A DNA stretch of 64,000 nucleotides, from NCBI GenBank assembly GCA_964594965.1, contig CAZQMX010000002.1, positions 44,306 through 108,305 on the forward strand, read 5' to 3'. The DNA is from an uncultured Candidatus Saccharibacteria bacterium. Its GTDB lineage: Bacteria; Patescibacteriota; Minisyncoccia; Portnoybacterales; UBA2143. The notes beneath the pieces were generated by a model. It did not search any database. It had not been told where the DNA came from and worked only from the letters and a program-made list of their open reading frames with translations. This document shows, piece after piece, positions 15,963 to 63,393 of this stretch. Position 1 is the stretch's first letter, and every line of letters begins with the position of its first letter. A program made the position numbers and the translations under genes.

Positions 15963-16046
15963 GGGGATGTGCTGGAACTGGTAGACAGTGCGGTCTCAAA
16001 CACCGCTGGACGCAAGTCCGTGTGGGTTCGACTCCCACCATCCCCA
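15963..16046 (+). tRNA. tRNA-Leu (anticodon CAA), long variable arm, CCA not encoded
   Basis: Acceptor ggggatg/catcccc; anticodon stem gcggt/accgc with loop ctCAAac; long variable arm; T-arm gtggg-ttcgact-cccac. The ORF-track entry 15953..16135 is this RNA, not a CDS. Confidence 0.85.
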
Positions 16047-16123
16047 CTAATAGGGTTCGCCCCGTCATTCGACGGGGCGCCACATCGGATGATGTGGCGA
16101 CTCCCACCCCAGGCACATTAAAA

Positions 16124-34948: not shown

Positions 34949-35290
34949 GGGGGTGCCTGGCATCGATGGAAAGGGATTTCAAAATAGGCAGGTTCCCGCA
35001 GGAGTGCGGGATAAAATTCTACTCATCATATAGTTGCAAACAAACAACTTTCACCTGCTTACGCTTAAATCGTAAGTCATCTGCCTTATTGACTCTTGAT
35101 AGATAGGGTAGGTGTCAATTATCAAGATAGACAGGATTGGTGACCGGACAATTCTGTTGAAACTAATCGGTCTAGAGATAATGGAATTTTGTTTCTTTCA
35201 ATCCATTGTTTCGAAAACTTTAAAGGAAATAAGCCTGTAGAATATTTTGGATGAGCTTTTCAGACAAGGGTTCGACTCCCTTCACCTCCA
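34949..35290 (+). ncRNA. ssrA: tmRNA (ssrA), ~340 nt, CCA not encoded
   Basis: Immediately downstream of smpB. 5' GGGGGUG pairs with 3' CACCUCC-A acceptor. T-arm-like ggttcgactccc near the 3' end. Candidate tag reading frame gca aac aaa caa ctt tca cct gct tac gct taa (ANKQLSPAYA*). Confidence 0.75.
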
Positions 35291-35440
35291 CTCGACTCGT
35301 TCCTCGTCTTCGACTACGCTCAGACTCGTCACTCGCTCGTGGCAAGCCACCATAATGTTTGTTATTAAGAAATATTCTCTTATTTAAGAGTCGAGTGTCC
35401 CGAGCGAAGCGAATCCCGAGCTAGTCGAGGGACAAATCAA
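35291..35440. repeat. composite GC-rich repeat region immediately 3' of tmRNA
   Basis: ctcgactcgttcctcgtcttcgactacgctcagactcg ... gtcccgagcgaagcgaatcccgagctagtcgaggg; shares cgcttcgctcggga-type modules with family 1. Confidence 0.45.
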
Positions 35441-43767: not shown

Positions 43768-44028
43768 TTACTGATAAATCCTGTGGGTACCGACTGAATG
43801 AAAATAAATAACACCGTCCCCAGCAAACTCGAATACTATCCTGTATTTATAGCCGACCGAAAAAGACCAAAAGCCTCTAAATTTCCCAGAAAGTTTGTGG
43901 GTCTTTAATTTTTTATCAAAAGGATTTTGACGAAAAATATTTTCTTTCTCTTCCATTAATTTCTTAGCTTTATCGGGTAGCTTCCTGTATTCCCGATAAA
44001 ATTTAGGAGAATATATTATTTTGTCCAT
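43768..44028 (-). CDS. type II toxin-antitoxin toxin, RelE/ParE (YafQ-like) family
   Basis: 86 aa; HKLSGKFRGFWSFSVGYKYRIVFEF..DGVIYFHSVGTHRIY matches the RelE/ParE C-terminal beta-sheet pattern; immediately downstream of a small RHH-like gene. Confidence 0.65.
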   Translation of the reverse strand: MDKIIYSPKFYREYRKLPDKAKKLMEEKENIFRQNPFDKKLKTHKLSGKFRGFWSFSVGYKYRIVFEFAGDGVIYFHSVGTHRIYQ

Positions 44029-44063
44029 TTATTTTCAGCAAGCCCACTCACAAGCTGTATTAA

Positions 44064-44282
44064 TTATCTTAAATCTTTAAAAGACTTTAAAACTTTGCCT
44101 TTTCCATCTAGTATTTCACGATGACTTTCCTCCAATTCAGCCAAAATCTTACTTTCTTCTTCATATTCACGCAAAAGAGAACGAAAGAATTCGCTGACAC
44201 TGGCATATTTGCCCTTTTTGACTTCTTGTTTGACCATCTTTGCCATTTGAGCAGGCAAAGAAATGTTGATAATGTTTCTCAT
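44064..44282 (-). CDS. TA antitoxin, ribbon-helix-helix (ParD/CopG-like)
   Basis: 72 aa; N-terminal NISLPAQMAKMVKQEVKKGKYASVSEFFRSLLREY is RHH-like; upstream of the toxin in the same orientation. Confidence 0.55.
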   Translation of the reverse strand: MRNIINISLPAQMAKMVKQEVKKGKYASVSEFFRSLLREYEEESKILAELEESHREILDGKGKVLKSFKDLR

Positions 44283-44430: not shown

Positions 44431-45762
44431 ATGGGGACGAGTGGGTCAGCTAATGATGAGTGGGTTGAATTGTATAACAGCGCCGGTGAAGAAGTTGATT
44501 TAACCGGCTGGGCTTTGAAAGCGGTTGATGGAATACCGGAAATAGGTTTATCAGGAACAATATCCCCTCAGGGATATTTTTTACTTGAACGAACCGATGA
44601 TACCAGTGCCCCCGATGTTGTGGCTGATTTAATCTATGTTGGCGCTCTGTCCAATACCGGAGAAGAATTAGGGCTCTATGACAGTGGGAATAATTTAATT
44701 GATTCAATTGATGCTTCTTCTGGCTGGGATTTTGGCGATAATTCAACCAAACAAACTATAGAAAAAACTGATTCTGGCTGGCAGACCAGTTTAGAAATTG
44801 GTGGAACGCCCAAAGCAGAAAACAGCAATCAGGAAGAATCAGGAGAATCAACCAGCGACGGAACCCCTTCATTTAAGCCGGCAAGTGATTATCCGCCAAC
44901 TGCCAATGCCGGACCGGATATTACTGCTCTGGTCGGACAGGAAATATTTTTTGACGGCAGTCAGTCATCTGATCCGGACTGGGATAAATTAAATTTTTTC
45001 TGGAATTTTGGCAATGGAGCAACCAGTACCCAGGAAAAAATTACTCACGCCTATGATTATCCCGGTCAATACATTGTTTCTCTTTCTGTTGAAGATGATA
45101 AATTCACCCATATTGATATTGCTCTGATTAATATCTATTCCGAATCGGTTGTGATTAGTGAATTTGACCCTAACAACAACTGGGTTGAATTGTATAATCC
45201 GAAGGAGGAAATTGCTAATTTAACTGGTTGGAAATTAAATGATTTCACTTTTCCGGAAAACACCTTTGTTGCTCCGAATCAATTCCTTGTTTTAAATCAT
45301 CAATCCAATTCCAATTCAATCCAACTTTTTTATCCTGATGGCTCTTTGGCCAGTCAAGTTGATTATTCTGAAAAAAAAGAAGGTTCCTGTATTGCTTTTG
45401 ACGGCAATGACTACTTTTGGACAAAAATTCCGACTCCTTCCGCAACTAATATTATTAGTTCAACCGGTCTGGAAAACGGAAACCAAAAGATTCTGAATAA
45501 TCCGGTCATAAAACAAAGCCGGGAAATTCCTAACCCGGATAATTCAGTTATTAATCTCGCTCAAAGTAGTAATCTTTCTGTTCTCGAGTCGGATGATATG
45601 ATAGAAGATAATCCGTATTCTCAGCAATCAGCTTCTTTATCTCAAACCGCTTCTTCAAGCCAGAAATCCAAATTAATTTTAATCATTTCAATTATCATTT
45701 CCGGTTCTCTTTTAGTCAGTTGGGGCCTGATTTTAATCAAAAACAGGGTCAAAACTCATTGA
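44431..45762 (+). CDS. cell-surface protein: lamin-tail domain - PKD domain - lamin-tail domain - C-terminal TM anchor; N-terminus probably extends upstream
   Basis: LINEIAWMGTSGSANDEWVELYN and SEFDPNNNWVELYNP are LTD signatures. PTANAGPDITALVGQEIFFDGSQSSDPDWDKLNFFWNFGNGAT is PKD-like. C-terminal hydrophobic helix. The in-frame upstream region (from 44299) encodes a hydrophobic signal-like stretch with no ATG. Confidence 0.75.
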   Translation: MGTSGSANDEWVELYNSAGEEVDLTGWALKAVDGIPEIGLSGTISPQGYFLLERTDDTSAPDVVADLIYVGALSNTGEELGLYDSGNNLIDSIDASSGWDFGDNSTKQTIEKTDSGWQTSLEIGGTPKAENSNQEESGESTSDGTPSFKPASDYPPTANAGPDITALVGQEIFFDGSQSSDPDWDKLNFFWNFGNGATSTQEKITHAYDYPGQYIVSLSVEDDKFTHIDIALINIYSESVVISEFDPNNNWVELYNPKEEIANLTGWKLNDFTFPENTFVAPNQFLVLNHQSNSNSIQLFYPDGSLASQVDYSEKKEGSCIAFDGNDYFWTKIPTPSATNIISSTGLENGNQKILNNPVIKQSREIPNPDNSVINLAQSSNLSVLESDDMIEDNPYSQQSASLSQTASSSQKSKLILIISIIISGSLLVSWGLILIKNRVKTH

Positions 45763-45819
45763 CACTGACTCTTTGTCAATAGTATCATTAGTAGAGGAGG
45801 CTTTTTTAATATACATACT

Positions 45820-46362
45820 ATGTCCGGTCATTCAAAATGGTCTTCAATTAAACACAAAAAAGCAATTACCGACGCCAGACGGGGTAAGATTTTTTCTAAA
45901 ATATCCCGTTTGATTAGCGTTGCTGCTAAAGAAAAAGGCGGTGATCCGGAAAGTAATTCTAAATTAAGATCGGCTATTGAACAGGCCCGTCAGGTCAATA
46001 TGCCCAAAAGCAATATTGAGAAAGCGATTAAAAAAGGAACTGGCCAGGTCAAAGGGGCTCAAATGGAAGAAATTATCTATGAGGCCTATGGCCCTTCAGG
46101 CATCGCTTTAATTATTACCGGCATCACTGATAACAAGAACCGGGCAACAGCTGAAATCAGACACATCTTAACCAAATTTGATGGAAAGCTGGCTCAGGTT
46201 GGCAGTGTCCGATATATGTTTAATAAAAAAGAGGAGGACTGGGAACCAAAATATCCTGTTGAAATTGCTGACGAAAAAACAAAAAAAAGACTGGAAAAAC
46301 TTTTTGAATCCCTGGATGAAAATGATGATGTCCAGGAAATCTATTCTAATTTAAAAATGTGA
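45820..46362 (+). CDS. yebC: YebC/PmpR family transcriptional regulator (short form)
   Basis: MSGHSKWSSIKHKKAITDARRGKIFSKISR canonical YebC N-terminus. Confidence 0.8.
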   Translation: MSGHSKWSSIKHKKAITDARRGKIFSKISRLISVAAKEKGGDPESNSKLRSAIEQARQVNMPKSNIEKAIKKGTGQVKGAQMEEIIYEAYGPSGIALIITGITDNKNRATAEIRHILTKFDGKLAQVGSVRYMFNKKEEDWEPKYPVEIADEKTKKRLEKLFESLDENDDVQEIYSNLKM

Positions 46363-47045
46363 CTATCTCTAAGGCAAATAAAATAAATTCGGGAAAGAAG
46401 TATTCCGAGAATTGGAGGAAAAAAGTAAGTAAAGGGTGGTTTAAAAAAGAAGGCATTCCTTGGAATAAAAGCAAAAAGATGCCTATGGAGACAAGGAGAA
46501 AATTAAGTAGAGCCCTTAAGGGACGCAAGGCTTGGAATAAGGGAAAAACAATGCCGGAAGAAGTAAAAAAGAAGTTGAGTGAACTTCTTAAAGGAAAGCG
46601 TCGTTCACCCGAGACAGAATTTAAAAAAGGACAATATAAAGGAGACGGGAACCCAGCCAAAAGAATGGAAATAAGAAGAAAAATAAGTGAAGCCAAAAAA
46701 GGAAAACCACACTTCAATCAAAGAGGAAGAAATCACGGAAACTGGAAAGGCGGGATTACTCCTAAAAACGAAAAAATCAGGAAAACTCTAGAATATAAAT
46801 TATGGAGAGAAGCTGTCTTTGCTAGAGACAATTGGAGTTGTCGAAAATGTAGAAAAAGAGGAAGTAAATTAGCTTCACATCATCTCTATAACTTCGCCGA
46901 TTTCGCCAGATCACGAACCTCGATTGAAAATGGAATTACCCTTTGTGAAAAATGTTATAGAGAATTCCATAAAGTTTATGGCTTAAAGAGGAATACAAAA
47001 GAAAAATTCGAAGAGTTTTTAAGTTTGCCCAATCGTTATAAATAG
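46359..47045 (+). CDS. HNH homing-type endonuclease with NUMOD3 DNA-binding repeats
   Basis: Four to five W/GNKGK...MPEE/TRRK NUMOD3-like repeats, then HNH core CRKCRKRGSKLASHHLYNF...NGITLCEKCYREFH. ATGA overlap with the yebC stop. Confidence 0.75.
   Translation: MTISKANKINSGKKYSENWRKKVSKGWFKKEGIPWNKSKKMPMETRRKLSRALKGRKAWNKGKTMPEEVKKKLSELLKGKRRSPETEFKKGQYKGDGNPAKRMEIRRKISEAKKGKPHFNQRGRNHGNWKGGITPKNEKIRKTLEYKLWREAVFARDNWSCRKCRKRGSKLASHHLYNFADFARSRTSIENGITLCEKCYREFHKVYGLKRNTKEKFEEFLSLPNRYK
46359..47045 (+). mobile_element. free-standing HNH endonuclease gene inserted between yebC and ruvC
   Basis: yebC-ruvC are normally adjacent; an HNH-NUMOD gene sits exactly between them. Confidence 0.5.
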
Positions 47046-47069
47046 ATAATTAAAATATATTTCATAAAC

Positions 47070-47546
47070 ATGACTATCTTAGGCGTAGACCCGGGAGTAG
47101 CCCGTGTAGGGTATGGTTTAGTTAAAAAAACATCAAATAATAATTTAAAACTGATTGACTATAATTGTATTGAAACCGATAAAGAATTACCGATTGCCCA
47201 GCGACTTAGCCAGATAGATAAACAATTGAAAAAGATAATCAAAGAAAACAAACCAGAACAGGTAGCTGTCGAAGATATTTTCTTTTTTAAGAATCTTAAA
47301 ACCGTAATTGCTGTTAGTCAGGCCCGGGGTGTTATTCTGGCCAGAGCGGCTAAAATGAGAATTCCTGTTATTGAATACACTCCCCTTCAGATTAAACAGG
47401 CCGTGACAAGTTACGGCCGGGCGGATAAAACCCAGGTTCAAAAAATGGTTAAATTGCTTTTAAAATTAAAACAAATTCCCAAGCCGGATGACGCTGCCGA
47501 CGCGCTGGCAACAGCCATCTGCTGCGCTCATTCTGTTTGTCAATAA
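47070..47546 (+). CDS. ruvC: Holliday junction resolvase RuvC
   Basis: MTILGVDPGVARVGYGLV start and catalytic acidic residues (VEDIFFFKN, DAADALA). Confidence 0.85.
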   Translation: MTILGVDPGVARVGYGLVKKTSNNNLKLIDYNCIETDKELPIAQRLSQIDKQLKKIIKENKPEQVAVEDIFFFKNLKTVIAVSQARGVILARAAKMRIPVIEYTPLQIKQAVTSYGRADKTQVQKMVKLLLKLKQIPKPDDAADALATAICCAHSVCQ

Positions 47547-47547
47547 A

Positions 47548-48210
47548 ATGTCATTTATCAGTCAATATTTAATCAATCAGGGAATGCCTGAGGAAACATT
47601 AATTCTTCTTTTAATGCTGCCAATTGTGGCAACCATTATTGCCTTTGCCCGCCAGGTCATTGGCATTAAGGGCTTTGGCATTTACACCCCTTTAATCATT
47701 TCTTTTGCTTTTTTAGCGACTGGTTTAAGATATGGCCTGGCTCTTTTTCTGATAATTCTCCTGGTCGGGACGATTATGAGGTTAGTTGTTAAAAAATTCC
47801 GCCTTCTCTATCTTCCCCGAATGGCAATTGTTTTAACAGCGGTTGCCGTTGTTGTTATTGCTCTTTTTCCCCTCGGAGCATATTTTGACCGAAATGGTCT
47901 GATTGGCGCTTCGATTCTAGCTATTCTAATTATGACAACCCTGGTTGAAAAATTTATTGTCGCTCAGATTGAAAGGGGTGCTCGGGGAGCAATCCTTTTA
48001 ACAACCGAAACTCTTTTTCTTTCCGTCATTTCCTTCTTTGTTATCAGCTGGATCTGGCTCCAAGGATTTGTCTTAATTTACCCTGCCTGGATTATTCTGG
48101 CTGCTGTTTTAGCCAATATTCTTTTAGGCAAATGGACCGGTCTTCGTTTAACTGAATACTTCCGTTTTAAGGAAGTTATCAAACATGCTGAAATTTCTGG
48201 AAAAAAGTAA
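47548..48210 (+). CDS. 7-TM integral membrane protein (first gene of the ATP-grasp operon)
   Basis: Start at MSFISQYL (the ORF-track start 47488 overlaps ruvC). Seven hydrophobic helices, no soluble domain. 26-nt overlap with the next gene. Confidence 0.55.
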   Translation: MSFISQYLINQGMPEETLILLLMLPIVATIIAFARQVIGIKGFGIYTPLIISFAFLATGLRYGLALFLIILLVGTIMRLVVKKFRLLYLPRMAIVLTAVAVVVIALFPLGAYFDRNGLIGASILAILIMTTLVEKFIVAQIERGARGAILLTTETLFLSVISFFVISWIWLQGFVLIYPAWIILAAVLANILLGKWTGLRLTEYFRFKEVIKHAEISGKK

Positions 48211-49513
48211 ATACGTTCTGGGATTAAATGCCCGCAATCTGACTTATCTCCGGCCCTCCAATAGTTCGAGGGCTGTTCGGATTGCTGATAACAAGCTTTT
48301 AGCCAAGAGGATTTTGAAAAAAGCTGGCTTGCCGGTTTTGGATACTCACGCCACCATTTCTGACTCAAAAGAATTAAGGGAGTTTGACTGGAATTCCTTG
48401 CCGCCAACCTTTGTTTTGAAACCTAATCGGGGTCTGGGCGGTGAAGGCATTATCATTGTTTACGGCAAAAAAAAGAAAGCTCCTTATCCCTGGGTCAGGG
48501 CAGACCGGAGAACGGTTGAAATTGAAGACCTCGAAGATCACACCCAGAATATTCTGGATGGAACCTATTCTTTAACCGGTTTGCCTGATGTTGCCTTTTT
48601 TGAAGAAAGAGTCAAATTAATTAAACTCTTAAAGCCGTATTCTTTTAGAGGAATTCCTGATATCCGCATTATTGTCTATAACTCTGTTCCGGTTATGGCG
48701 GAAATGCGCTTACCAACCCAGGAATCAGGCGGTAAAGCCAATCTTCATTTAGGCGGCATTGGTGTTGGTATTGATATGGGCAATGGTATTACTACAACTG
48801 CTATTCAAAGAGACCGTTTGATTGAATACGCTCCTGGAACCCGACTTCCCCTTTCAGGAATTCATATTCCTGATTGGAAAGAAGTTCTTCGAATGGCAAT
48901 TTACGCCCAGCAGGCAACCCGAATTGGATTCCTCGGCATTGACATTGCTATTGACCGGGATAAGGGACCAATGATCCTGGAATTAAATGTCAGGCCGGGC
49001 CTATCAATCCAGATTGCTAATTTGACTCCTTTGGGAGATCGCCTCCAAAGGGTTAAAGGCCTTAAAATTAAAACTATTAATAAGGGGGTTAAAATTGCCC
49101 AGGATCTTTTTGGCGGTGAAATCGAGGAAGAACTTGAAGAAATCTCTGGCCGGAAAGTAATTGGCATTAACGAACCAATTGAAATTCTGGACAATGATGA
49201 AAACAAACATCCAACCATGGCTAAAATTGATACCGGCGCCTACCGGACAACAATTTGCCAGACCCTGGCCGATAAATTAAATCTGAATAAGATTATTAGC
49301 CACAAGAAAGTCAGAGGAGCATTAGGGATTGAAGAAAGACCGATTATTAACCTCTCTTTTATTTTAGATAAAAGACTAGTCACAACCGAAGCTTTTGTCG
49401 CTGACCGGAGCGAGATGAAATATGATATTATCGTCGGAAGAAAAGATTTGAAAAGGTTTTTGGTTGATCCGGCTAAGAACGTCTTTATGCGGGGGAAAGG
49501 ACGAGTTAGTTAA
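48185..49513 (+). CDS. fusion protein: RimK-related alpha-L-glutamate-ligase-like ATP-grasp domain (N) + retropepsin-like aspartic protease domain (C; RimB/PF05618-like)
   Basis: N-terminus VLGLNARNLTYLRP...IADNKLLAKRILKKAGLPV matches the alpha-L-glutamate ligase-related family pattern (GMN-RN--YI...ADDKLLTK-LA--AG-PVP). C-terminus has KIDTGAYRTTI (D-T-G-A at 49229..49240) plus a second half with IIVGRKDL, typical of retropepsin-like protease. Confidence 0.7.
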   Translation: MLKFLEKSKYVLGLNARNLTYLRPSNSSRAVRIADNKLLAKRILKKAGLPVLDTHATISDSKELREFDWNSLPPTFVLKPNRGLGGEGIIIVYGKKKKAPYPWVRADRRTVEIEDLEDHTQNILDGTYSLTGLPDVAFFEERVKLIKLLKPYSFRGIPDIRIIVYNSVPVMAEMRLPTQESGGKANLHLGGIGVGIDMGNGITTTAIQRDRLIEYAPGTRLPLSGIHIPDWKEVLRMAIYAQQATRIGFLGIDIAIDRDKGPMILELNVRPGLSIQIANLTPLGDRLQRVKGLKIKTINKGVKIAQDLFGGEIEEELEEISGRKVIGINEPIEILDNDENKHPTMAKIDTGAYRTTICQTLADKLNLNKIISHKKVRGALGIEERPIINLSFILDKRLVTTEAFVADRSEMKYDIIVGRKDLKRFLVDPAKNVFMRGKGRVS

Positions 49514-49515
49514 TT

Positions 49516-51009
49516 ATGCTTATCAAAGACCTAGCCTCTCTAAAAGAATACTTTTCTCAGATTAAAACTCCGATATTTGGCGCCGGGGTCTATGTTTTTA
49601 ACCGGCTTGGCCTGGAAGATATCTATTCCAATTACCGGATTCTGGCCCTGCGCTATAGTTTGGATACCAAACTAATTGAAAAAGGCATTAAGGTTCTGTC
49701 TTTGGAAAAGGGAATGGGAACCAGGCATATCAGAGAGCCAAGAAATGCCACCACCGTTATTAGCCATTCTAAAACAAAAGAATACCTTAAGAAATTCCAA
49801 AATCCGGCTATTCTGGTTTATCAGCCGTCTAAAAAAATGGAAGAGGTTTGTCAGGAAAATGGATGGGAATTACTTAACAATCCGACAAGTTTTGGCAAAG
49901 ATCTATTGGAAAACAAAATCAAATTCAGAAGAATCTTAAAAGAATTAGGTATTGCTGTTCCGCCCGGAAAAATTGCTTCAGCTTCCAAACTTCATTACGG
50001 GCATTTGATTAATAGGTATGGGTTGCCTTTTGTTATCCAGCATCCAACCAAGGGCGGCGGCAAAGGAACTTTTTTCATCAACAACAAAGAAGATTTTGAC
50101 CAGGCCTACAAGAAACTTCATAAGAAATGGGACGAAGATAATGAAAAAGAAGTCACTCCGCCGGATGAAGTTATTGTTGCCCAGTTTATCCAGGGTTCTT
50201 CCCCTTCAATTACCGCCTGCGTTACAAAACATGGCGTTCTTTCAACCAATCTTCAGTATCAGATTCTTGATGCTCCGAAGTTATATAATCCGGAAAAGGG
50301 TTCTGGTCTTTTCTGCGGTCATGACTGGACAAGTTCCAGGTTTTCTGATTCAATCAATTACCAGGCCTACGAAGCTGTTGAAAAAATCGGCCAGTATTTC
50401 AAAGAGCTGGGCTACAAGGGAATTTTCGGCTTAGATTTTGTCCTTGACGAAAAAAAAGAAAAACTCTACATTGTTGAATGTAATCCCCGCTTTCTTGGTT
50501 CTTACCCGGTTATTAACATGGCTCAGTTAATAAACAACGAGCCGCCAATTCTGGCCTTTCATGTTTTGGAGTTTTTAGGAAATGATTACCAGATTGATAA
50601 AAATGAAATTAATTACCAAATGCGAAGAGAAAAAATCGGCGCTCAGATGATTTTGCATAATTTAACAACCAAATGGGCCAGAAATCACAAGCAAATTAAG
50701 GCCGGGGTTTACAAATTAAGGAAAAACAAATTAAAATACATCCGGGAGGGGTATGATTTAAAGCATTTAAGAGAAAAGGAAGAATTTCTTTTAGCTGACG
50801 GGGTTTCATTAAAACATTCCCATTTTAGTCCTAATCGCCGGCTTTGCCGGATCCTGACTCTTAATCAATGCCTTGCTGATGATTACAAGAATCTTAATCC
50901 CTGGGCAAAGCAGGTATCTGAAACAGTCTATTCTGCCTTTGAAATGAAACCAATCAAGTTTATTAAACTCAAAAAATTCTTTTTTCCTAATCTTTTAGCT
51001 AAAGGTTAG
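49516..51009 (+). CDS. ATP-grasp superfamily ligase with N-terminal pre-ATP-grasp domain (uncharacterized subfamily)
   Basis: KIKFRRILKELGIAVPPGKI...GLPFVIQHPTKGGGKGTFFINNKEDFDQAYKKL...VIVAQFIQG...GIFGLDFVLDEKKEKLYIVECNPRF. 2-nt gap from the upstream gene. Confidence 0.6.
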   Translation: MLIKDLASLKEYFSQIKTPIFGAGVYVFNRLGLEDIYSNYRILALRYSLDTKLIEKGIKVLSLEKGMGTRHIREPRNATTVISHSKTKEYLKKFQNPAILVYQPSKKMEEVCQENGWELLNNPTSFGKDLLENKIKFRRILKELGIAVPPGKIASASKLHYGHLINRYGLPFVIQHPTKGGGKGTFFINNKEDFDQAYKKLHKKWDEDNEKEVTPPDEVIVAQFIQGSSPSITACVTKHGVLSTNLQYQILDAPKLYNPEKGSGLFCGHDWTSSRFSDSINYQAYEAVEKIGQYFKELGYKGIFGLDFVLDEKKEKLYIVECNPRFLGSYPVINMAQLINNEPPILAFHVLEFLGNDYQIDKNEINYQMRREKIGAQMILHNLTTKWARNHKQIKAGVYKLRKNKLKYIREGYDLKHLREKEEFLLADGVSLKHSHFSPNRRLCRILTLNQCLADDYKNLNPWAKQVSETVYSAFEMKPIKFIKLKKFFFPNLLAKG

Positions 51010-51014
51010 GCTCC

Positions 51015-52043
51015 ATGATTACATACTTTAATACAAAAAAAGAGATTAATCTCAAAGAATTTATCGGCCGGGGGGGTCGTTTTTTAATTCTGCATTTAAG
51101 GGAACTTAAAAAAAGGAATATTGATTGTCAGGTTCTTGTCCAGAAAAGAAAAGACAGGGATGATGTTCTTTTCTTGAAAATTAGAAAAGAAGGCAAGACC
51201 AGATGGCTTTCTCCTCAAAAAGGATATTTCAATACCAAGCAAAGCTGCGAACTGGCCCTTCACAAAGACCTGACTTACAAGATTCTTGAATCAGTTAATT
51301 TGCCTGTTCCTCAAAACTACAAGATTGAAAAAATCAGCCAATTAAAGAAAATAGATTTGTCTTATCCGGTTGTGGTTAAACCAACTGACCAGGCCAAGGG
51401 CAAAGGTGTCCTAATTGGCATTAAAGACAGGGAAGAATTGAAAAAATCAGTTAAAAGACTGCTTAAAAAATATTCTTCTTTGATTGTTGAAGAATACATT
51501 CCGGGAAATGATTATCGTCTTTTAATTCTGGATAAAAAACTCCTGGGAGCGATAAAAAGAACGCCGCCAAAAATTAAAGCTGATGGAAAAAGAACCATCC
51601 GGGAATTAATCAGAAAGGAAAACAAAAAAAGATATGATAGGCCAATTGCCTTTAAGCCCTACTCCAAAACACTGGAAATTGATTTAGAAGTTAAGAGATG
51701 CTTAAGAGAGCAAGGTTATTCCCTTAATTCAATTCCTAAAAAGGATGAAAAAATTATTGTCAGGAGAAATACTAATTTCTCGAGCGGTGGAGAAACATTA
51801 GATGTGACTAAAAAAGTTCATCCGGAGAATATTAAAATCGCCAAAAAGGCGATTAAATCTCTCGGACTTAAATTCGGCGGAGTTGATTTCGTTGCTGAAA
51901 AAATATCAGAGCCGATTAGCCGGAACAATGGTCGGATTGTTGAAATTAACGGTATTCCTGGAATTTGGATACATCATTTTCCAAATCACGGCCAAAGAAG
52001 AAACATTGCCAAGAAAATTATTGATTACTTGTTTGAAAACTAA
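51015..52043 (+). CDS. stand-alone cyanophycin-synthetase-N-domain-like / RimK-like ATP-grasp ligase
   Basis: YPVVVKPTDQAKGKGVLIGI...DYRLLILDKKLLGAIKRTPPKIKADGKRTIRELI...NFSSGGETLDVTKKVHPENIKIAKKAIKSLGLKFGGVDFV closely parallels the CphA N-terminal ATP-grasp motifs (DYRLLVV..KVVAA..RxPAxVxGDG..TIxELI ... NLSTGGxAxDVTDxVHPxN...GLDIAGIDF). Confidence 0.7.
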   Translation: MITYFNTKKEINLKEFIGRGGRFLILHLRELKKRNIDCQVLVQKRKDRDDVLFLKIRKEGKTRWLSPQKGYFNTKQSCELALHKDLTYKILESVNLPVPQNYKIEKISQLKKIDLSYPVVVKPTDQAKGKGVLIGIKDREELKKSVKRLLKKYSSLIVEEYIPGNDYRLLILDKKLLGAIKRTPPKIKADGKRTIRELIRKENKKRYDRPIAFKPYSKTLEIDLEVKRCLREQGYSLNSIPKKDEKIIVRRNTNFSSGGETLDVTKKVHPENIKIAKKAIKSLGLKFGGVDFVAEKISEPISRNNGRIVEINGIPGIWIHHFPNHGQRRNIAKKIIDYLFEN

Positions 52044-52063
52044 AAGTGTAATGTCTTGCTTTT

Positions 52064-52237
52064 TTAGGCCTTGTGAAAAAGGATCGCCAGTATGAAAGAA
52101 ACCACTGCGGCAAGAGCGTAGATTAATATCCCGGATGAATTGCCGTTAGCTATGACATGTCCGGAAATTGCCCCTACCCAGATGATTCCAAGAGTAAGCC
52201 AAAACATTGTAAAAAACTTACTAGTTTTTTTATTCAT
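52064..52237 (-). CDS. possible small 2-TM membrane protein (57 aa), below ORF-track threshold
   Basis: Reverse-strand ATG at 52237 to TAA at 52064: MNKKTSKFFTMFWLTLGIIWVGAISGHVIANGNSSGILIYALAAVVSFILAILFHKA. Confidence 0.25.
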   Translation of the reverse strand: MNKKTSKFFTMFWLTLGIIWVGAISGHVIANGNSSGILIYALAAVVSFILAILFHKA

Positions 52238-52294
52238 ATTCCTATTATACCACCTTTGGAATAGGAACCAATCAAATTAACTGGGGAAAACTTT

Positions 52295-52328
52295 AACGGC
52301 AGACCTGTTTAAGTCTGCCGTCTTTTTA
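52295..52328. terminator. bidirectional rho-independent terminator (acggcagac-ctgtttaa-gtctgccgt + ttttta)
   Basis: 9-bp GC-rich stem with U-tail on + strand and A-run upstream; sits between the convergent ATP-grasp operon and the 52335..52955 gene. Confidence 0.65.
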
Positions 52329-52334
52329 GATGAG

Positions 52335-52955
52335 TTAGTCAGGAACATTGCAATACGCGTAAGCAGCGCTTACAGCCTCCTGTATTTCTTCGAGACGCTC
52401 CTTTACCACGCGCCTCTTGGCCTCTTTTAACCTGGCGAGGAAAAAATCAGTCCAGAATTCGGGCATAGACGTTAGTTCGTCTTTATGGCGACCTGGCTCC
52501 AAGAGATCGAACGGATTACGGGTCGTGCCACCCCCTCCCCATAAATGGACTACATTGGCTTTGCCATCTTTTGTCACTAACGGCATTCCATTTTCATCGT
52601 ATTCCGGCAGAGTTGTAATCTGGACCCAAATCCGATAAGGAATACTAAAGACTTCTGTTGTATCAAAGACAATCAGAGAAACATTGGCTAATAAGGGTAA
52701 ATCTATGGACTCTAATCCAACAAGGACTGGCCAGATAAAGCTTTCTTCAAATAAAACAGTTCCTTTTTCATCGGTCGTTTTGTACTCTGCCATCTTTTCA
52801 CTATCAAACAGAGCAGTTGGAACCTGAGGATTCTGCCGAAGCGGCAAATGATTATGATCGGTATAAAACGCTATTTTCATGGTGTCTTCCCTCCTTTTCG
52901 GTATTCTGATTTGAAGAACATTAATTTGAGACAAGGATACAATAATGTTTGTCAA
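52335..52955 (-). CDS. hypothetical protein, compositionally atypical (higher GC); probable start MKIAFYTDHNHL (~52880)
   Basis: Clear ORF with markedly higher G+C than surrounding genes; no recognisable motif. Confidence 0.4.
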   Translation of the reverse strand: MTNIIVSLSQINVLQIRIPKRREDTMKIAFYTDHNHLPLRQNPQVPTALFDSEKMAEYKTTDEKGTVLFEESFIWPVLVGLESIDLPLLANVSLIVFDTTEVFSIPYRIWVQITTLPEYDENGMPLVTKDGKANVVHLWGGGGTTRNPFDLLEPGRHKDELTSMPEFWTDFFLARLKEAKRRVVKERLEEIQEAVSAAYAYCNVPD

Positions 52956-60863: not shown

Positions 60864-60900
60864 TAAGCGATTCAAAAATTTGATTTTCGGAGCTTAAATA

Positions 60901-63393
60901 ATGTTCAAAAAACTATTGAAACTTGCTGGATTTCTTTTTGCCATGGCCATTCTTTTGGGAATTGGTCTTTTTGCTTTCTTTGCTAAGGATTTACCTGATC
61001 CGACCAAAATGGGTTCCCGACAAATTGTTGAATCAACTAAAATCTATGACCGAACCGGCGAAGTCATTCTTTACGATATCCACGGCGAGGAAAAAAGAAC
61101 CATTATTCCATATGATCAAATCCCCCAATTCATTAAAGACGCCACTATTATCGCAGAAGATGATAATTTCTATCATCACATTGGCATTGACTGGAAAGGA
61201 ATTTTAAGAGCAGCCTGGGCCAATCTGAATAAAAACAAAATTGCCCAGGGCGGTTCAACCATTACCCAGCAATACATCAAGAATGCCTATCTGGGCGGTC
61301 CCAGGTCAGAAAGAACCTATGCCCGTAAAATTAAAGAAGCGATTTTGGCCGTTGAAATGGAAATAAAGTATTCTAAGGATGAAATTCTTGATTTCTATTT
61401 AAACCAGGTTTCCTATGGCTCTAATGCCTATGGGATTGAGGCGGCTGCCCAGACATTTTTTAACAAGAATACTGATGATTTAACTTTGGCCGAAGGCGCT
61501 CTTTTGGCATCCCTGCCCAAAGCCCCAAGCTATTTCTCCCCCTACGGCTCCCATATTGAAGATTTAAAAGCAAGACAGGAATATGTTTTAGAAAGAATGA
61601 TTAAATTCGGCTACATTACCGAAGAAGAGTCATTAGCCGCCAGGGAAGAAGAATTAAAATATGCTTCCCAGGGCGATTTAAAAGCTCATCATTTTATAAC
61701 AATGATTCAGGAATATTTAGAAGAAGAATACGGCCGAATCTATTCTGATATTAATATGGCTGGATTAAAGGTCTATACTACCCTGGATTGGGATATGCAG
61801 AGAATTGCTGAAGAAGTTGTCACCGAAGGGGTTGAAAAGAATGAAAAAACCTATCGGGCAACTAATGGAGCTCTGGTTGCGATTGACCCTAAAACCGGTC
61901 AGGTTTTAGCCCTGGTCGGTTCAAAAAACTATTCTGAAGATCAATTTAATGTTGCGACCAGTCCTTTTCGACAGCCGGGTTCTTCTTTTAAACCTTTTGC
62001 CTACGCCGTTGCTTTTGATGAAGGATATTCTCCGGATAGCATGATTTTTGATTTAGAAACCAGTTTTGGCAAATTTGGTCCAGCCGGAGCAGAAAAAGAA
62101 TACAAACCGAATAACTATGATTTGAAATTTAGAGGACCGGTTACTTTTAGACAGGCCTTGGCCCAGTCAATTAACCTGCCCTCGGTTAAAGTTCTTCATC
62201 TGGCTGGAGTCAATGATACGATTAATTTAGCCCAGGATATGGGAATTACAACCCTAAAAGAAAGGGGTCGGTATAGCTTGTCATTGGTTCTAGGCGGCGG
62301 CGAAGTTAAATTAATTGATGAAACCACAGCTTACGGAGTTTTTGCGACAGAAGGAGTCAAACATCCAACTAATTTAATTTTAAGGATTGAAGATGCTGAC
62401 GGAGACGTTTTAGAAGAATTCAAGGATGAATCTGACCGGGTTTTAGATAGTCAGGTTGCCCGTCAGATTACCAGTATTTTATCAGATGAAGCTGCCCGGG
62501 CACCAATGCTTGGTAATAATTCAAAATTGTATTTACCCGGACGGCCAGCCGCAGCCAAAACCGGAACAACCCAGGATTACGCTGATGGCTGGACAATTGG
62601 TTATACGCCCAGTTTGGTTGTTGGAGTTTGGGCGGGGAATAATGATTTTACCGATAAGATGAGAGTTGGGGCAGCTGGTCTTTATGTTGCCGCTCCAATC
62701 TGGAATGATTTTATGAGAAAAACTTATCAGGAAAAGACCGAAAGACCTGATGATGTTGAAGAAATTAAACCGAATACTTTCTTTTTACCCAAAAGCGCTG
62801 AAAACTTTAATCCACCCGATTCACCAAAAGAAAGTGACAAACCGATGGTTAATGGTCAATTAACTTTTGAAAATATTATTAAAATTGATAAAATCTCAGG
62901 AAAACTGGCGACAGATTTAACTCCACCTAATTTAATTGAAGAAAAAACCTATCGGGAAGTCCATTCAATTCTCTATTATGTTAATAAGAATGATGAACAA
63001 TTTGAAAACTGGGAAAATCCTGTTTTAAACTGGGCTCAAAACCAGCCCTGTGATAATAATATCTGCTATAATCAAGAGCCGCCTCAGGAAGAAGATGATG
63101 CCCATACCAAAGAAAACCAACCGAGTGTTGAGATTATTTCTCCTAGTCAGGGAACCTCAATTAGCCCGACTTATTTAATAATTAAAGCCGACGCTTCAGC
63201 GCCCTTAGGAATTAAACAAGTTGATTTCTTTTTTAATGACCAATTAATTGGAAGTGATACAAATTCACCTTATTCAGTTAATTTTAATATTTCCCATTAC
63301 TCATATGACTCCGGCAGGCAATATATTAAAGTCAGGGCTTATGATCAATCCCTTAATCGGGAAGAGGATGAGATATATATTAAAGTAGATTAA
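60901..63393 (+). CDS. class A penicillin-binding protein (PBP1A: glycosyltransferase + transpeptidase) with C-terminal extension
   Basis: GT51 motifs EDDNFYHHIGIDWKG, QGGSTITQQYIKN; transpeptidase SSFKPF (SxxK), SIN, KTGTT; N-terminal TM. Confidence 0.9.
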   Translation: MFKKLLKLAGFLFAMAILLGIGLFAFFAKDLPDPTKMGSRQIVESTKIYDRTGEVILYDIHGEEKRTIIPYDQIPQFIKDATIIAEDDNFYHHIGIDWKGILRAAWANLNKNKIAQGGSTITQQYIKNAYLGGPRSERTYARKIKEAILAVEMEIKYSKDEILDFYLNQVSYGSNAYGIEAAAQTFFNKNTDDLTLAEGALLASLPKAPSYFSPYGSHIEDLKARQEYVLERMIKFGYITEEESLAAREEELKYASQGDLKAHHFITMIQEYLEEEYGRIYSDINMAGLKVYTTLDWDMQRIAEEVVTEGVEKNEKTYRATNGALVAIDPKTGQVLALVGSKNYSEDQFNVATSPFRQPGSSFKPFAYAVAFDEGYSPDSMIFDLETSFGKFGPAGAEKEYKPNNYDLKFRGPVTFRQALAQSINLPSVKVLHLAGVNDTINLAQDMGITTLKERGRYSLSLVLGGGEVKLIDETTAYGVFATEGVKHPTNLILRIEDADGDVLEEFKDESDRVLDSQVARQITSILSDEAARAPMLGNNSKLYLPGRPAAAKTGTTQDYADGWTIGYTPSLVVGVWAGNNDFTDKMRVGAAGLYVAAPIWNDFMRKTYQEKTERPDDVEEIKPNTFFLPKSAENFNPPDSPKESDKPMVNGQLTFENIIKIDKISGKLATDLTPPNLIEEKTYREVHSILYYVNKNDEQFENWENPVLNWAQNQPCDNNICYNQEPPQEEDDAHTKENQPSVEIISPSQGTSISPTYLIIKADASAPLGIKQVDFFFNDQLIGSDTNSPYSVNFNISHYSYDSGRQYIKVRAYDQSLNREEDEIYIKVD

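What the first reader, a model, noticed from the sequence alone, without database searches (positions are those of the whole stretch)
48185..49513. Single polypeptide fusing a RimK-like ligase to a RimB-like retropepsin protease (DTGA at 49229..49240)
The writer domain (alpha-L-glutamate-ligase-like ATP-grasp, residues ~1-300) and the eraser domain (retropepsin-like aspartic protease, residues ~325-442) lie in one ORF. The catalytic-type Asp-Thr-Gly-Ala motif and a second lobe segment (IIVGRKDL) are present.

These two activities are normally separate genes: an alpha-L-glutamate ligase-like protein and a putative ATP-dependent zinc protease.

A fusion implies obligate coupling of tail synthesis and trimming.
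Basis: partly seen in the sequence, partly recalled or inferred. Interest (0 to 1): 0.7.

Follow-up and report, generated by a model that had tools for sequence, protein, structure and literature searches.

The report
Ligase-retropepsin fusion enzyme of Patescibacteria
One real, conserved gene in these ultra-small bacteria joins an ATP-dependent peptide ligase to an HIV-protease-like domain; fusions of these two enzyme types were already published in 2025, so this is a new variant (reversed order, different ligase family, membrane partner), not a new kind of system.

Summary
ORF 48185..49513 is an uninterrupted 442-aa protein with an ATP-grasp ligase domain (PF14397, E 2e-62) followed by a retropepsin domain. 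The latter matches PF05618 above its cut-off, and a model of the C-terminal 143 residues best matches the RloA crystal structures, then DUF785, Ddi1 and HIV-1 protease. DTGA lies exactly at 49229..49240.

It is not a frameshift artefact. In all 80 related species genomes examined, both domains share one ORF, K-x-DTGA is kept, and the two domains diverge in step.

The family labels need correcting. The ligase belongs to the RloC / TIGR02291 family, not RimK proper. The protease scores slightly nearer RloA than RimB. The upstream gene is the 7-TM half of RloB. So this looks like a compact, cytoplasmic Rlo-like module found across the Candidate Phyla Radiation. It is often followed by further ATP-grasp ligases, a MATCAP peptidase and a class A PBP.

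A retropepsin/ATP-grasp hybrid, RimBK, was published in 2025 with the opposite domain order. The protein has a single DTG, so it must dimerise; "second lobe" is a misnomer.

The coupled make-and-trim mechanism on acidic peptides is inferred, not shown.

Novelty: new variant of a known kind. Interest is moderate.

The parts
47548..48210 (+). Seven-TM membrane protein. It is equivalent to the C-terminal 7-TM half of RloB and has no transglutaminase-like domain. The longest ORF starts at 47488; gene callers on identical contigs used 47548 or the longer start. It overlaps the fusion gene by 26 nt.
   Evidence: PF14402 E 1.5e-28, profile positions 56-247 of 248. NF052267 RloB matched at positions 312-507 of 508 only. 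Seven hydrophobic segments. Found immediately upstream of the fusion in almost all of the 80 loci.
48185..49513 (+). The fusion gene: a 442-aa ATP-grasp ligase plus retropepsin polypeptide. It has no TM segment and no hydrophobic N-terminal stretch that could serve as a signal peptide; pI is 9.6.
48233..49057 (+). ATP-grasp amidoligase domain (residues 17-291), of the RloC / TIGR02291 type.
   Evidence: PF14397 E 2e-62. TIGR02291 257 bits. Full-length model best matches ArgX/LysX, RimK and the cyanophycin synthetase G domain. Unfused relatives at 39-43% identity pass the TIGR02291 cut-off.
48980..48988 (+). E266-L-N268, which I read as the Mg/ATP-binding E-x-N motif of ATP-grasp enzymes. E266, N268, D253 and K79 are invariant in 30 homologues.
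   Evidence: for invariance; the motif assignment is from general knowledge of ATP-grasp enzymes.
49109..49165 (+). Conserved acidic linker (residues 309-327, FGGEIEEELEEISGRKVIG), predicted disordered.
   Evidence: pLDDT below 50 for residues 313-327. F309, G310, G311, E314 and E318 are invariant. The pattern is kept in relatives at 40-55% identity. The stretch 308-328 has pI 4.2.
49166..49483 (+). Retropepsin-like aspartic protease domain (residues 328-433). It is a compact subtype, with about 30 fewer residues between the catalytic loop and the ERP strand than RloA2.
   Evidence: PF05618 31.3 bits, cut-off 27. PDB sequence hits to 9g59, 9g58 and DDI1. Model and fold search.
49223..49240 (+). 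K347-I-D349-T-G-A352: the catalytic Asp motif with a Lys two residues before it.
   Evidence: Invariant in A1 and A2. K-x-DTGA present in 80 of 80 loci. Aligns with AK[ML]DTGA of the RloA structures.
49337..49408 (+). R385 (in ERP) and R408 (in ADR), 23 residues apart. They align with the ERP/ARP and TDR arginines of RloA.
   Evidence: Alignment. Invariant as R86 and R109 of A2. The spacing matches K46/R114/R137 of P. aeruginosa RloA, which are reported to coordinate poly-Glu (PMC12239564). The residue mapping by spacing is my inference.
49427..49450 (+). I415-I-V-G-R-K-D-L422: the hydrophobic-G-R-[KR]-D motif of the same retropepsin lobe. It is not a second lobe.
   Evidence: G418, R419 and D421 are invariant. 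Variants of the motif are present in the 80 loci.
49516..51009 (+). Second ATP-grasp ligase (497 aa), 2 nt downstream of the fusion gene. A homologue lies downstream of the fusion in 39 of the 80 related loci.
   Evidence: PF02655 E 4e-13. PRK06524-like, 166 bits. Only weak biotin-carboxylase-type PDB hits. Gene orders.
51015..52043 (+). Third ATP-grasp ligase (342 aa), similar to the G domain of cyanophycin synthetase. Clear homologues (46-52% identity) occur in only six of the 80 related loci.
   Evidence: TIGR02068 positions 207-472, 268 bits. Loci with 46-52% identity: L009, L012, L018, L023, L029, L041.

Best explanation
The gene encodes a genuine bifunctional cytoplasmic enzyme of a compact Rlo-like module. 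The module consists of a 7-TM membrane protein (RloB without its periplasmic transglutaminase-like domain) and, translationally coupled to it, an RloC-family ATP-grasp amidoligase. That ligase carries at its C-terminus a retropepsin of the RimB/RloA family (PF05618).

Proposed mechanism (inferred): the ATP-grasp domain uses ATP to add amino acids, most likely glutamate or another acidic residue, to a peptide or protein C-terminus, or to build a free acidic oligopeptide. Two fusion chains associate so that their two single-DTG domains form one aspartic active site. That site cuts the acidic product endoproteolytically, which limits its length or releases it. The fusion fixes ligase and protease at 1:1 on the cytoplasmic face of the membrane, next to the 7-TM partner.

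Shown: domain identities, the fold, motif conservation, the reality of the fusion, gene neighbourhood, and the absence of any TM segment or hydrophobic N-terminal stretch. Inferred: the substrate, dimerisation and functional coupling.
For: Domain identities.

Reality of the fusion: more than 120 full-length homologues. Both domains are in one ORF in 80 of 80 species genomes. Their identities to the window protein average 61.5% (N domain) and 63.1% (C domain), correlated at r = 0.90.

Catalytic competence: K-x-DTGA and G-R-[KR]-D are kept in 80 of 80 loci. ATP-grasp residues K79, D253, E266 and N268 are invariant.

Acidic-substrate inference: K347, R385 and R408 are invariant. They align with, and are spaced like, the residues reported to bind poly-Glu in RloA. 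RimB and RloA both cleave poly-Glu. The protease domain is basic, pI 9.5.

Complex with the 7-TM protein: the genes overlap by 26 nt. The 7-TM gene is adjacent in almost all loci. Single proteins joining 7-TM and ATPgrasp_ST domains exist elsewhere (P0259, P0263).

Precedents: RimB binds RimK and stimulates it, and the RimBK hybrid is proteolytically active. Genetic epistasis links RloA to RloB and RloC.

Peptide-metabolism context: the slot downstream of the fusion holds further ATP-grasp ligases, a RimK-GNAT fusion or a MATCAP carboxypeptidase, followed by a class A PBP in 51 of 80 loci.
Against: No biochemical activity is known for any RloC-family ligase, so the product is unknown.

The protease domain scores far below every curated RloA or RimB equivalog cut-off (about 16-32 bits against 200-280). 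Its flap region is about 30 residues shorter than in RloA2, so its specificity may differ.

The published RimBK hybrid did not glutamylate RpsF.

Among the relatives listed, at 34-56% identity to the window protein, 55 of 86 fused cluster representatives have lost the DTG motif. Proteolysis is therefore dispensable in part of the family.

Dimerisation could not be modelled with the tools available. Synteny with the PBP, RuvC and YebC may simply be conserved gene order in small genomes.
Confidence: 0.6

Rival explanations
1. Self-processing polyprotein. As in retroviral Gag-Pol, the retropepsin cuts the conserved acidic linker and frees itself from the ligase, so the two activities work as separate proteins after maturation.
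For: The linker FGGEIEEELEEISGR is conserved, acidic and predicted disordered. RimB can cut internal poly-Glu stretches. Retropepsins classically excise themselves from polyproteins (general knowledge).
Against: RimB needs five to six or more contiguous Glu, and RloA needs eight. The linker has at most three in a row, interrupted by Ile and Leu. Its i, i+4, i+7 hydrophobic pattern (I, L, I) looks more like an amphipathic helix, and it degrades into non-acidic sequence in distant relatives. If the aim were two separate proteins, the fusion would not need to be kept as one ORF in 80 of 80 genomes.
Confidence: 0.12
2. The retropepsin domain is mainly a non-catalytic regulatory or dimerisation module that activates or scaffolds the ATP-grasp domain, as RimB stimulates the RimK ATPase. 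Proteolysis would be vestigial.
For: RimB stimulates RimK ATPase and poly-Glu synthesis by direct binding. 55 of 86 fused cluster representatives lack DTG yet keep the domain, mostly in fusions of about 780-815 aa with MATCAP.
Against: In the window's own clade, D-T-G-A, the preceding Lys, both substrate-channel Arg residues and the G-R-x-D motif are invariant across 80 species, down to 45% identity in this domain. That conservation argues for selection on catalysis. The two roles are not mutually exclusive.
Confidence: 0.1
3. The fusion is an artefact: a sequencing frameshift, a lost stop codon or a chimeric assembly that joined two adjacent genes.
For: None found. One related locus (L053) does show a spurious larger ORF joining the 7-TM gene to the fusion, but it runs across a stretch of N.
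Against: The identical protein occurs on independent assemblies from ENA, JGI and NCBI. Both domains are in one frame in 80 of 80 species genomes. More than 120 full-length homologues exist.
Confidence: 0.01
4. It is an orthodox RimK/RimB system that polyglutamylates ribosomal protein S6 (RpsF) and trims its tail.
For: It has the same two enzyme superfamilies, and NCBI names some homologues 'RimK/LysX family protein'.
Against: TIGR00768 (RimK family) scores 47 bits against a cut-off of 143. RimB (NF052261) scores 15.8 bits against a cut-off of 200. The protein lacks the N-terminal part of the RimK-family model: its best match starts at position 69 of 276. It has a dedicated 7-TM partner that the rim operon lacks. 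The window contains no ORF of 60 aa or more with a run of four or more Glu or an acidic C-terminal tail. rpsF itself is not in the window, so it could not be examined.
Confidence: 0.07

Closest known systems
RimBK hybrid enzyme (Desulfotalea psychrophila DP2392; JBC 2025, PMC11957791)
   Same: A single polypeptide joins a PF05618 retropepsin domain to an ATP-grasp amidoligase. The protease part is experimentally active on poly-Glu tails.
   Different: Domain order is reversed: RimB occupies residues 1-163 at the N-terminus of RimK, whereas here the protease is C-terminal. The ligase is RimK proper, whereas here it is TIGR02291/PF14397. No 7-TM partner is reported. The taxa are mostly Flavobacteriales and Rhodobacterales, against the Candidate Phyla Radiation here. 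The reversed order and different ligase family suggest an independent fusion.
rloABC operon of Pseudomonas (mBio 2025, PMC12239564)
   Same: The same three building blocks are present: a PF14402 7-TM protein, a TIGR02291-family cytosolic ATP-grasp, and a PF05618 retropepsin. The catalytic Asp and the Lys/Arg positions aligning with its poly-Glu-binding residues are conserved. The Pseudomonas operon is linked to cell-envelope phenotypes. Here a class A PBP lies downstream in 51 of 80 loci.
   Different: RloA is a separate, secreted protein with a signal peptide and a disulfide. Here the domain is fused to the cytosolic ligase, has no hydrophobic N-terminal or TM segment, and carries a single Cys. 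RloB has a periplasmic inactive transglutaminase domain that is missing here. All scores lie below the curated RloA, RloB and RloC cut-offs. The paper reported 96% of RloB hits in Proteobacteria.
RimK-RimB (with RimA) ribosomal S6 polyglutamylation system
   Same: An ATP-grasp 'writer' and a retropepsin 'eraser' bind each other, and the protease also stimulates the ligase.
   Different: They are separate proteins of a different ligase subfamily, the target is RpsF, and there is no membrane partner.
Retroviral protease and the Ddi1 RVP domain
   Same: The same single-lobe fold, with D-T-G-A and a G-R-D/N-type motif, embedded in a larger polypeptide. HIV-1 protease aligns at rmsd 2.5 A over 97 columns, and Ddi1 is found by sequence at E about 1e-3.
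   Different: The fusion partner and biology are unrelated, and no self-excision has been demonstrated here.
Tubulin tyrosine ligase / MATCAP writer-eraser pair (analogy only)
   Same: An ATP-grasp ligase that adds C-terminal residues is opposed by a MATCAP-family metallopeptidase (general knowledge). Relatives of the window protein are fused to a MATCAP domain (PF08014) or have a MATCAP gene next door.
   Different: That is a eukaryotic cytoskeletal system. The window protein itself has no MATCAP domain.

Membership tests
Retropepsin-like aspartic peptidases (clan AA; Pfam PF05618 RimB-like / DUF785) | Profile match above the curated threshold | tested here: met
   PF05618 scores 31.3 bits against a gathering cut-off of 27, but only over residues 368-432, the C-terminal half of the profile.
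Retropepsin-like aspartic peptidases (clan AA; Pfam PF05618 RimB-like / DUF785) | Catalytic D-[TS]-G-A motif following a hydrophobic strand | tested here: met
   AKIDTGAY at residues 346-353. D349, G351 and A352 are invariant; T350 is replaced by Ser in two of 30 homologues. DTGA is present in 80 of 80 loci.
Retropepsin-like aspartic peptidases (clan AA; Pfam PF05618 RimB-like / DUF785) | Single-lobe retropepsin fold | tested here: met
   Model pLDDT 82.4. Foldseek probability 1.00 to RloA 9g58/9g59, 2pma, Ddi1 and HIV-1 protease.
Retropepsin-like aspartic peptidases (clan AA; Pfam PF05618 RimB-like / DUF785) | Homodimer that forms the aspartate dyad | not testable with these tools
   Only monomer prediction was available. 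RloA is dimeric by crystallography and SEC-MALS (PMC12239564).
RloABC system | RloC: cytosolic ATP-grasp of TIGR02291 | tested here: inconclusive
   TIGR02291 is the best hit at 257 bits but falls below its cut-off of 314.2. Unfused relatives at 39-43% identity pass it at 335-440 bits.
RloABC system | [quoted passage not shown] | tested here: not met
   Only the 7-TM half is present. NF052267 matches at positions 312-507 of 508, 88.9 bits against a cut-off of 900. PF14402 only.
RloABC system | RloA: separate secreted retropepsin with a signal peptide and a conserved disulfide | tested here: not met
   The domain is fused to the C-terminus of the cytosolic ligase. No hydrophobic segment was found; the highest 19-residue Kyte-Doolittle mean is 1.03. 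There is one Cys in the domain. RloA models score 24-32 bits against cut-offs of 210-280.
RloABC system | Poly-Glu-coordinating Lys/Arg residues around the active site | tested here: met
   K347, R385 and R408 are invariant and aligned with the K-x-D, ERP and TDR positions of the RloA structures. The link to RloA K46, R114 and R137 rests on identical spacing and is my inference.
RimBK hybrid / RimK-RimB | ATP-grasp belongs to the RimK family (TIGR00768) | tested here: not met
   47.2 bits against a cut-off of 143.4.
RimBK hybrid / RimK-RimB | RimB domain at the N-terminus of the ligase | tested here: not met
   Here the protease domain is C-terminal, residues 328-433.
RimBK hybrid / RimK-RimB | [quoted passage not shown] | not testable with these tools
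   rpsF is not in the window and no biochemical test was possible.
ATP-grasp amidoligases | ATP-grasp fold with conserved Lys and the D...E-x-N Mg/ATP residues | tested here: met
   PF14397 E 2e-62. Fold matches to ArgX/LysX, RimK and CphA1. K79, D253, E266 and N268 are invariant. Assignment of these residues to the motif is from general knowledge.

The most novel reading that the evidence does not exclude
Candidate Phyla Radiation bacteria carry an ancestral or minimal, entirely cytoplasmic Rlo machine. In it, a membrane-tethered ligase-retropepsin polypeptide, often with extra ATP-grasp ligases and a MATCAP carboxypeptidase, writes and erases acidic peptide tails on a cell-envelope target such as the neighbouring class A PBP or a lipid-linked wall precursor. 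That would be a previously unrecognised reversible peptide-tail code controlling wall synthesis. It would also explain the Pseudomonas rlo phenotypes.
Probability: 0.12. Interest if true: 0.75.

Novelty: new variant of a known kind. Interest (0 to 1): 0.42.

Why it matters
The biochemical role of the Rlo system is unknown: what RloC makes, what RloA cuts, and how a cytosolic ligase and a periplasmic protease share a substrate. This is despite its effects on osmotic tolerance, beta-lactam sensitivity and biofilm in Pseudomonas (PMC12239564).

A natural single-chain version offers a simple in-vitro system to identify the product and to test coupling. In it, ligase and protease are locked 1:1 in the cytoplasm, and the membrane partner is reduced to its seven TM helices.

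The finding also changes the evolutionary picture. Rlo-type modules are not essentially proteobacterial. The genome scan confirmed 507 matching stretches in species-representative genomes, and the best 80 are all from the Candidate Phyla Radiation.

Within that wider family, the retropepsin lacks its catalytic motif in most members that also carry a MATCAP peptidase domain. That pattern suggests one eraser replacing another.

Tried and rejected
1. Frameshift or assembly artefact: rejected.

2. A 689-aa ORF in L053 that seemed to join the 7-TM gene to the fusion: it runs across a masked N stretch and is not evidence.

3. Fold search with the full-length model returned only ATP-grasp hits. The C-terminal domain had to be modelled separately.

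4. Autocleavage at the acidic linker: judged unlikely given the published Glu-run requirements of RimB and RloA. It could not be excluded.

5. Search for encoded poly-Glu substrates in the window: no ORF of 60 aa or more has a run of four or more Glu or an acidic C-terminal tail.

6. Literature: Iyer et al. 2009 (PMC3268129), which analysed the ATP-grasp / 7-TM transglutaminase / peptidase gene neighbourhoods, is not held. I cannot exclude that it mentions such fusions. Searches on Pfam and TIGRFAM accessions, on Patescibacteria with retropepsin and ATP-grasp, and on MATCAP/DUF1704 with ATP-grasp found no description of this architecture.

7. The afdb50 fold library was unavailable.

8. A neighbour-joining tree of ATP-grasp domains, without support values, places all 86 fused representatives on one side of a split from 35 of 42 unfused ones. 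The other seven are short and probably include fragments. This is suggestive of one or few fusion events only.

9. Rfam and tRNA scans of the window showed nothing connected with the locus.
Full report
**Observation**

The window holds an uninterrupted ORF at 48185..49513 (+) of 442 aa.

Pfam places ATPgrasp_ST (PF14397, E 2e-62) on residues 17-291. It places PF05618, formerly 'putative ATP-dependent zinc protease' and now called RimB-like in newer releases, on residues 368-432 at 31.3 bits. That is above the gathering cut-off of 27. Sub-threshold retroviral-type aspartyl-protease hits cover residues 340-392, the part that carries DTGA.

Sequence search of the PDB with the C-terminal 133 residues finds the two RloA crystal structures (9g59, 9g58) and the retropepsin domains of Ddi1.

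An AlphaFold2 model of the whole protein has pLDDT 77.6. It shows two folded domains joined by a disordered stretch at residues 313-327. Its ATP-grasp part best matches ArgX/LysX, RimK and the G domain of cyanophycin synthetase.

A separate model of the last 143 residues has pLDDT 82.4. It best matches RloA (9g58), the DUF785 protein Lpg0085 (2pma) and RloA2 (9g59), then Ddi1 and HIV-1 protease. For HIV-1 protease the target-normalised TM-score is 0.67 and rmsd is 2.5 A over 97 columns.

**Reality of the fusion**

The identical protein occurs on independent ENA, JGI and NCBI assemblies. More than 120 full-length proteins of about 440 aa, at 64-100% identity, have the same architecture. All the names attached to them point to Patescibacteria, Portnoybacteria or Parcubacteria MAGs.

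A scan of species-representative genomes used the peptide pattern around the active site. The best 80 all come from Candidate Phyla Radiation genomes. Their record titles read Patescibacteria group, Portnoybacteria, Andersenbacteria, Spechtbacteria, Parcubacteria or Paceibacterota; many third-party-annotated MAGs are titled 'uncultured Candidatus Saccharibacteria bacterium'.

In 80 of 80 loci the retropepsin region lies in the same ORF as the ATP-grasp region. All 80 keep K-x-DTGA and a G-R-[RK]-D-[LI] motif. The identities of the two domains to the window protein average 61.5% and 63.1% and are correlated at r = 0.90. Both halves are therefore under similar constraint and have evolved together.

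More distant fused representatives carry names from Woesebacteria, Jacksonbacteria, Parcubacteria and Peregrinibacteria. The architecture is thus widespread in the radiation.

**What the parts are**

The ligase domain is not RimK proper. The RimK-family model TIGR00768 scores 47 bits against a cut-off of 143. TIGR02291 ('alpha-L-glutamate ligase-like protein') scores 257 bits against a cut-off of 314. Unfused relatives at 39-43% identity pass that cut-off. TIGR02291 is the family of RloC in the Pseudomonas rloABC operon.

The protease domain scores RloA3 > RloA > RloA2 > RimB, all far below their cut-offs. It is a divergent, compact member of PF05618. The distance from the catalytic Asp to the conserved ERP strand is 36 residues, against 68 in RloA2.

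The gene immediately upstream (47548..48210) overlaps the fusion gene by 26 nt. It encodes seven TM helices. It matches only the C-terminal 7-TM half of RloB and lacks the transglutaminase-like domain.

The fusion protein has no hydrophobic segment and is basic, pI 9.6, so it should be cytoplasmic. Its protease domain has a single Cys. That is consistent with the published remark that the disulfide of periplasmic RloA is absent from cytosolic relatives.

**Catalytic residues**

K79, D253, E266 and N268 of the ATP-grasp domain are invariant in 30 homologues. I read these as the usual ATP/Mg ligands, from general knowledge of the fold.

In the protease domain, K347, D349, G351, A352, R385, R408, G418, R419 and D421 are invariant even when homologues at 30-45% identity are included. 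K347, R385 and R408 align with the K-x-D, ERP and TDR positions of the RloA structures. They have the same spacing as K46, R114 and R137 of P. aeruginosa RloA. The authors of that work report that these residues coordinate an octaglutamate peptide and are needed for activity (PMC12239564). The mapping by spacing is my inference.

There is only one DTG and one lobe. IIVGRKDL corresponds to the Gly-Arg-Asp/Asn motif of the same lobe, so an active site requires a homodimer, as shown for RloA.

**Neighbourhood**

From yebC (45820) to the third ATP-grasp gene (end 52043), the genes are co-directional, with overlaps or gaps of 1-24 nt. The best promoter-like site in the region scanned (45700..52500) lies just upstream of yebC. 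The strongest terminator-like hairpin lies at 52296..52321.

Across the 80 loci the order is [YebC] > RuvC > 7-TM > fusion > variable slot > class A PBP. The PBP is present within the 4-kb flank in 51 loci.

The variable slot holds one of the following:
- nothing;
- the roughly 500-aa ATP-grasp seen in the window (49516..51009);
- a cyanophycin-synthetase-like ATP-grasp (window 51015..52043);
- a RimK-GNAT fusion;
- a stand-alone MATCAP-family metallopeptidase.

In the window, the PBP homologue lies at about 60898..63381, roughly 9 kb further on. The slot is thus a place where peptide ligases and peptidases accumulate next to a wall synthase.

**Wider family**

A search of 1.8 billion cluster representatives found 419 relatives at E <= 1e-30. 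The best 150 include:
- fused proteins of 430-510 aa;
- proteins of 770-930 aa that add a C-terminal MATCAP domain (PF08014);
- one that adds a YdjC domain;
- single proteins joining a 7-TM or transglutaminase-7-TM region to the ATP-grasp.

Of 86 fused representatives, 31 keep D-[TS]-G-[AS] and 55 have lost it. Most of the latter are the MATCAP fusions.

A rough neighbour-joining tree of the ligase domains puts all fused forms on one side of a split from 35 of 42 unfused forms.

**Mechanism**

Best-supported reading (confidence about 0.6): this is a bifunctional cytoplasmic enzyme of a compact Rlo-like module. The ligase builds or extends an acidic peptide or tail. Two chains pair their retropepsin domains to form one active site that trims or releases the product. 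The 7-TM protein anchors the complex, or passes the product on, at the membrane.

Support comes from three sources:
- the conserved residues described above;
- the published poly-Glu specificity of RimB and RloA;
- the published physical and functional coupling of RimB to RimK, and the genetic epistasis of rloB/rloC over rloA.

The product, dimerisation and coupling are all inferred. No RloC-family enzyme has a known activity, and the published RimBK hybrid did not glutamylate RpsF.

Rivals:
- Self-excision at the conserved acidic linker is possible but disfavoured. RimB needs five to six or more contiguous Glu and RloA needs eight, whereas the linker has at most three.
- A purely regulatory, non-catalytic protease domain fits the DTG-less relatives. 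It does not fit the invariant catalytic residues in this clade.
- An orthodox S6-modifying RimK/RimB system is not supported by the family scores or by the membrane partner.
- An artefact is excluded.

**Comparison with what is known**

A retropepsin/ATP-grasp hybrid, RimBK, was described in 2025. The RimB domain sits at the N-terminus of RimK, the hybrid occurs in 12% of rim-bearing accessions (mostly Flavobacteriales and Rhodobacterales), and it is proteolytically active (PMC11957791). The idea of the fusion is therefore not new.

The present protein differs in domain order, ligase family, membrane partner and lineage. It corresponds instead to a fusion of RloC with RloA. The rloABC paper does not mention such fusions, and it describes RloB as 96% proteobacterial.

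I found no paper in the searchable library that describes this architecture. The key comparative-genomics paper of 2009 could not be read. Databases already hold hundreds of these sequences under generic names.

**Verdict**

The finding is a new variant of a known kind, of moderate interest (0.42). Its main value is as a natural single-chain handle on the unknown chemistry of Rlo-type systems, and as evidence that such modules are common in the Candidate Phyla Radiation.

Noticed in passing
related proteins P0129, P0133, P0156 and others (770-930 aa): Many relatives are triple fusions: ATPgrasp_ST, then a retropepsin-like domain, then MATCAP (PF08014, tyrosine carboxypeptidase family). Most of them have lost the DTG motif (for example IDTSRR, LDPTHE). 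The named ones come from Peregrinibacteria and Patescibacteria. This looks like one 'eraser' peptidase replacing another.
   Followed up: partly
L051:4427-5578 and four other loci: A stand-alone MATCAP-family gene (383 aa, PF08014 E 8.5e-62) lies directly downstream of the fusion gene. The same partnership therefore exists both as neighbouring genes and as a fusion.
   Followed up: partly
window about 60898..63381 (+); for example L084:4431-7316: A class A penicillin-binding protein (transglycosylase, transpeptidase and Big_7 domains) follows the fusion or its accessory ligases in 51 of 80 related loci. In the window its homologue (49% identity to the L084 protein) lies about 9 kb downstream, beyond a block of minus-strand genes.
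   Followed up: partly
window 46359..47045 (+): A 228-aa NUMOD3 + HNH endonuclease ORF (GTG start, 4-nt overlap with yebC) sits between yebC and ruvC. It is absent from the homologous position in related genomes (L004, L006), so it looks like a mobile homing-endonuclease insertion.
   Followed up: partly
L030:4361-5755 (18 loci in all): In some genomes the slot downstream of the fusion holds a RimK-like ATP-grasp fused to a GNAT acetyltransferase (464 aa). In the window it holds a cyanophycin-synthetase-G-domain-like ATP-grasp (51015..52043). The accessory ligases are interchangeable.
   Followed up: partly
window 49109..49165: The inter-domain linker FGGEIEEELEEISGRKVIG is as conserved as the catalytic domains, although it is predicted disordered. 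Its role (helix, docking element, pseudo-substrate or cleavage site) is unexplained.
   Followed up: partly
related proteins P0259 (680 aa) and P0263 (880 aa): Single proteins join the 7-TM region (in P0263 with a transglutaminase core domain) to an ATPgrasp_ST ligase, in effect RloB-RloC fusions. This supports a physical complex of the membrane protein and the ligase.
   Followed up: no
L053:2351-4420: An apparent 689-aa ORF joining the 7-TM gene to the fusion runs across a masked N stretch. It is a scaffold-gap artefact, not a triple fusion.
   Followed up: yes
window 43768..44282 (-): A small pair of ORFs: a YafQ-like toxin (86 aa) and a ribbon-helix-helix antitoxin (72 aa), by the weak Pfam hits recorded on the identical contigs. 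They lie just upstream of a 443-aa protein with LTD and PKD domains and a C-terminal hydrophobic stretch (44431..45762).
   Followed up: no
window 15963..16047 and 34949..35293: tRNA-Leu(CAA) and a tmRNA (tag peptide ANKQLSPAYA) are the only RNA genes detected in the window.
   Followed up: no
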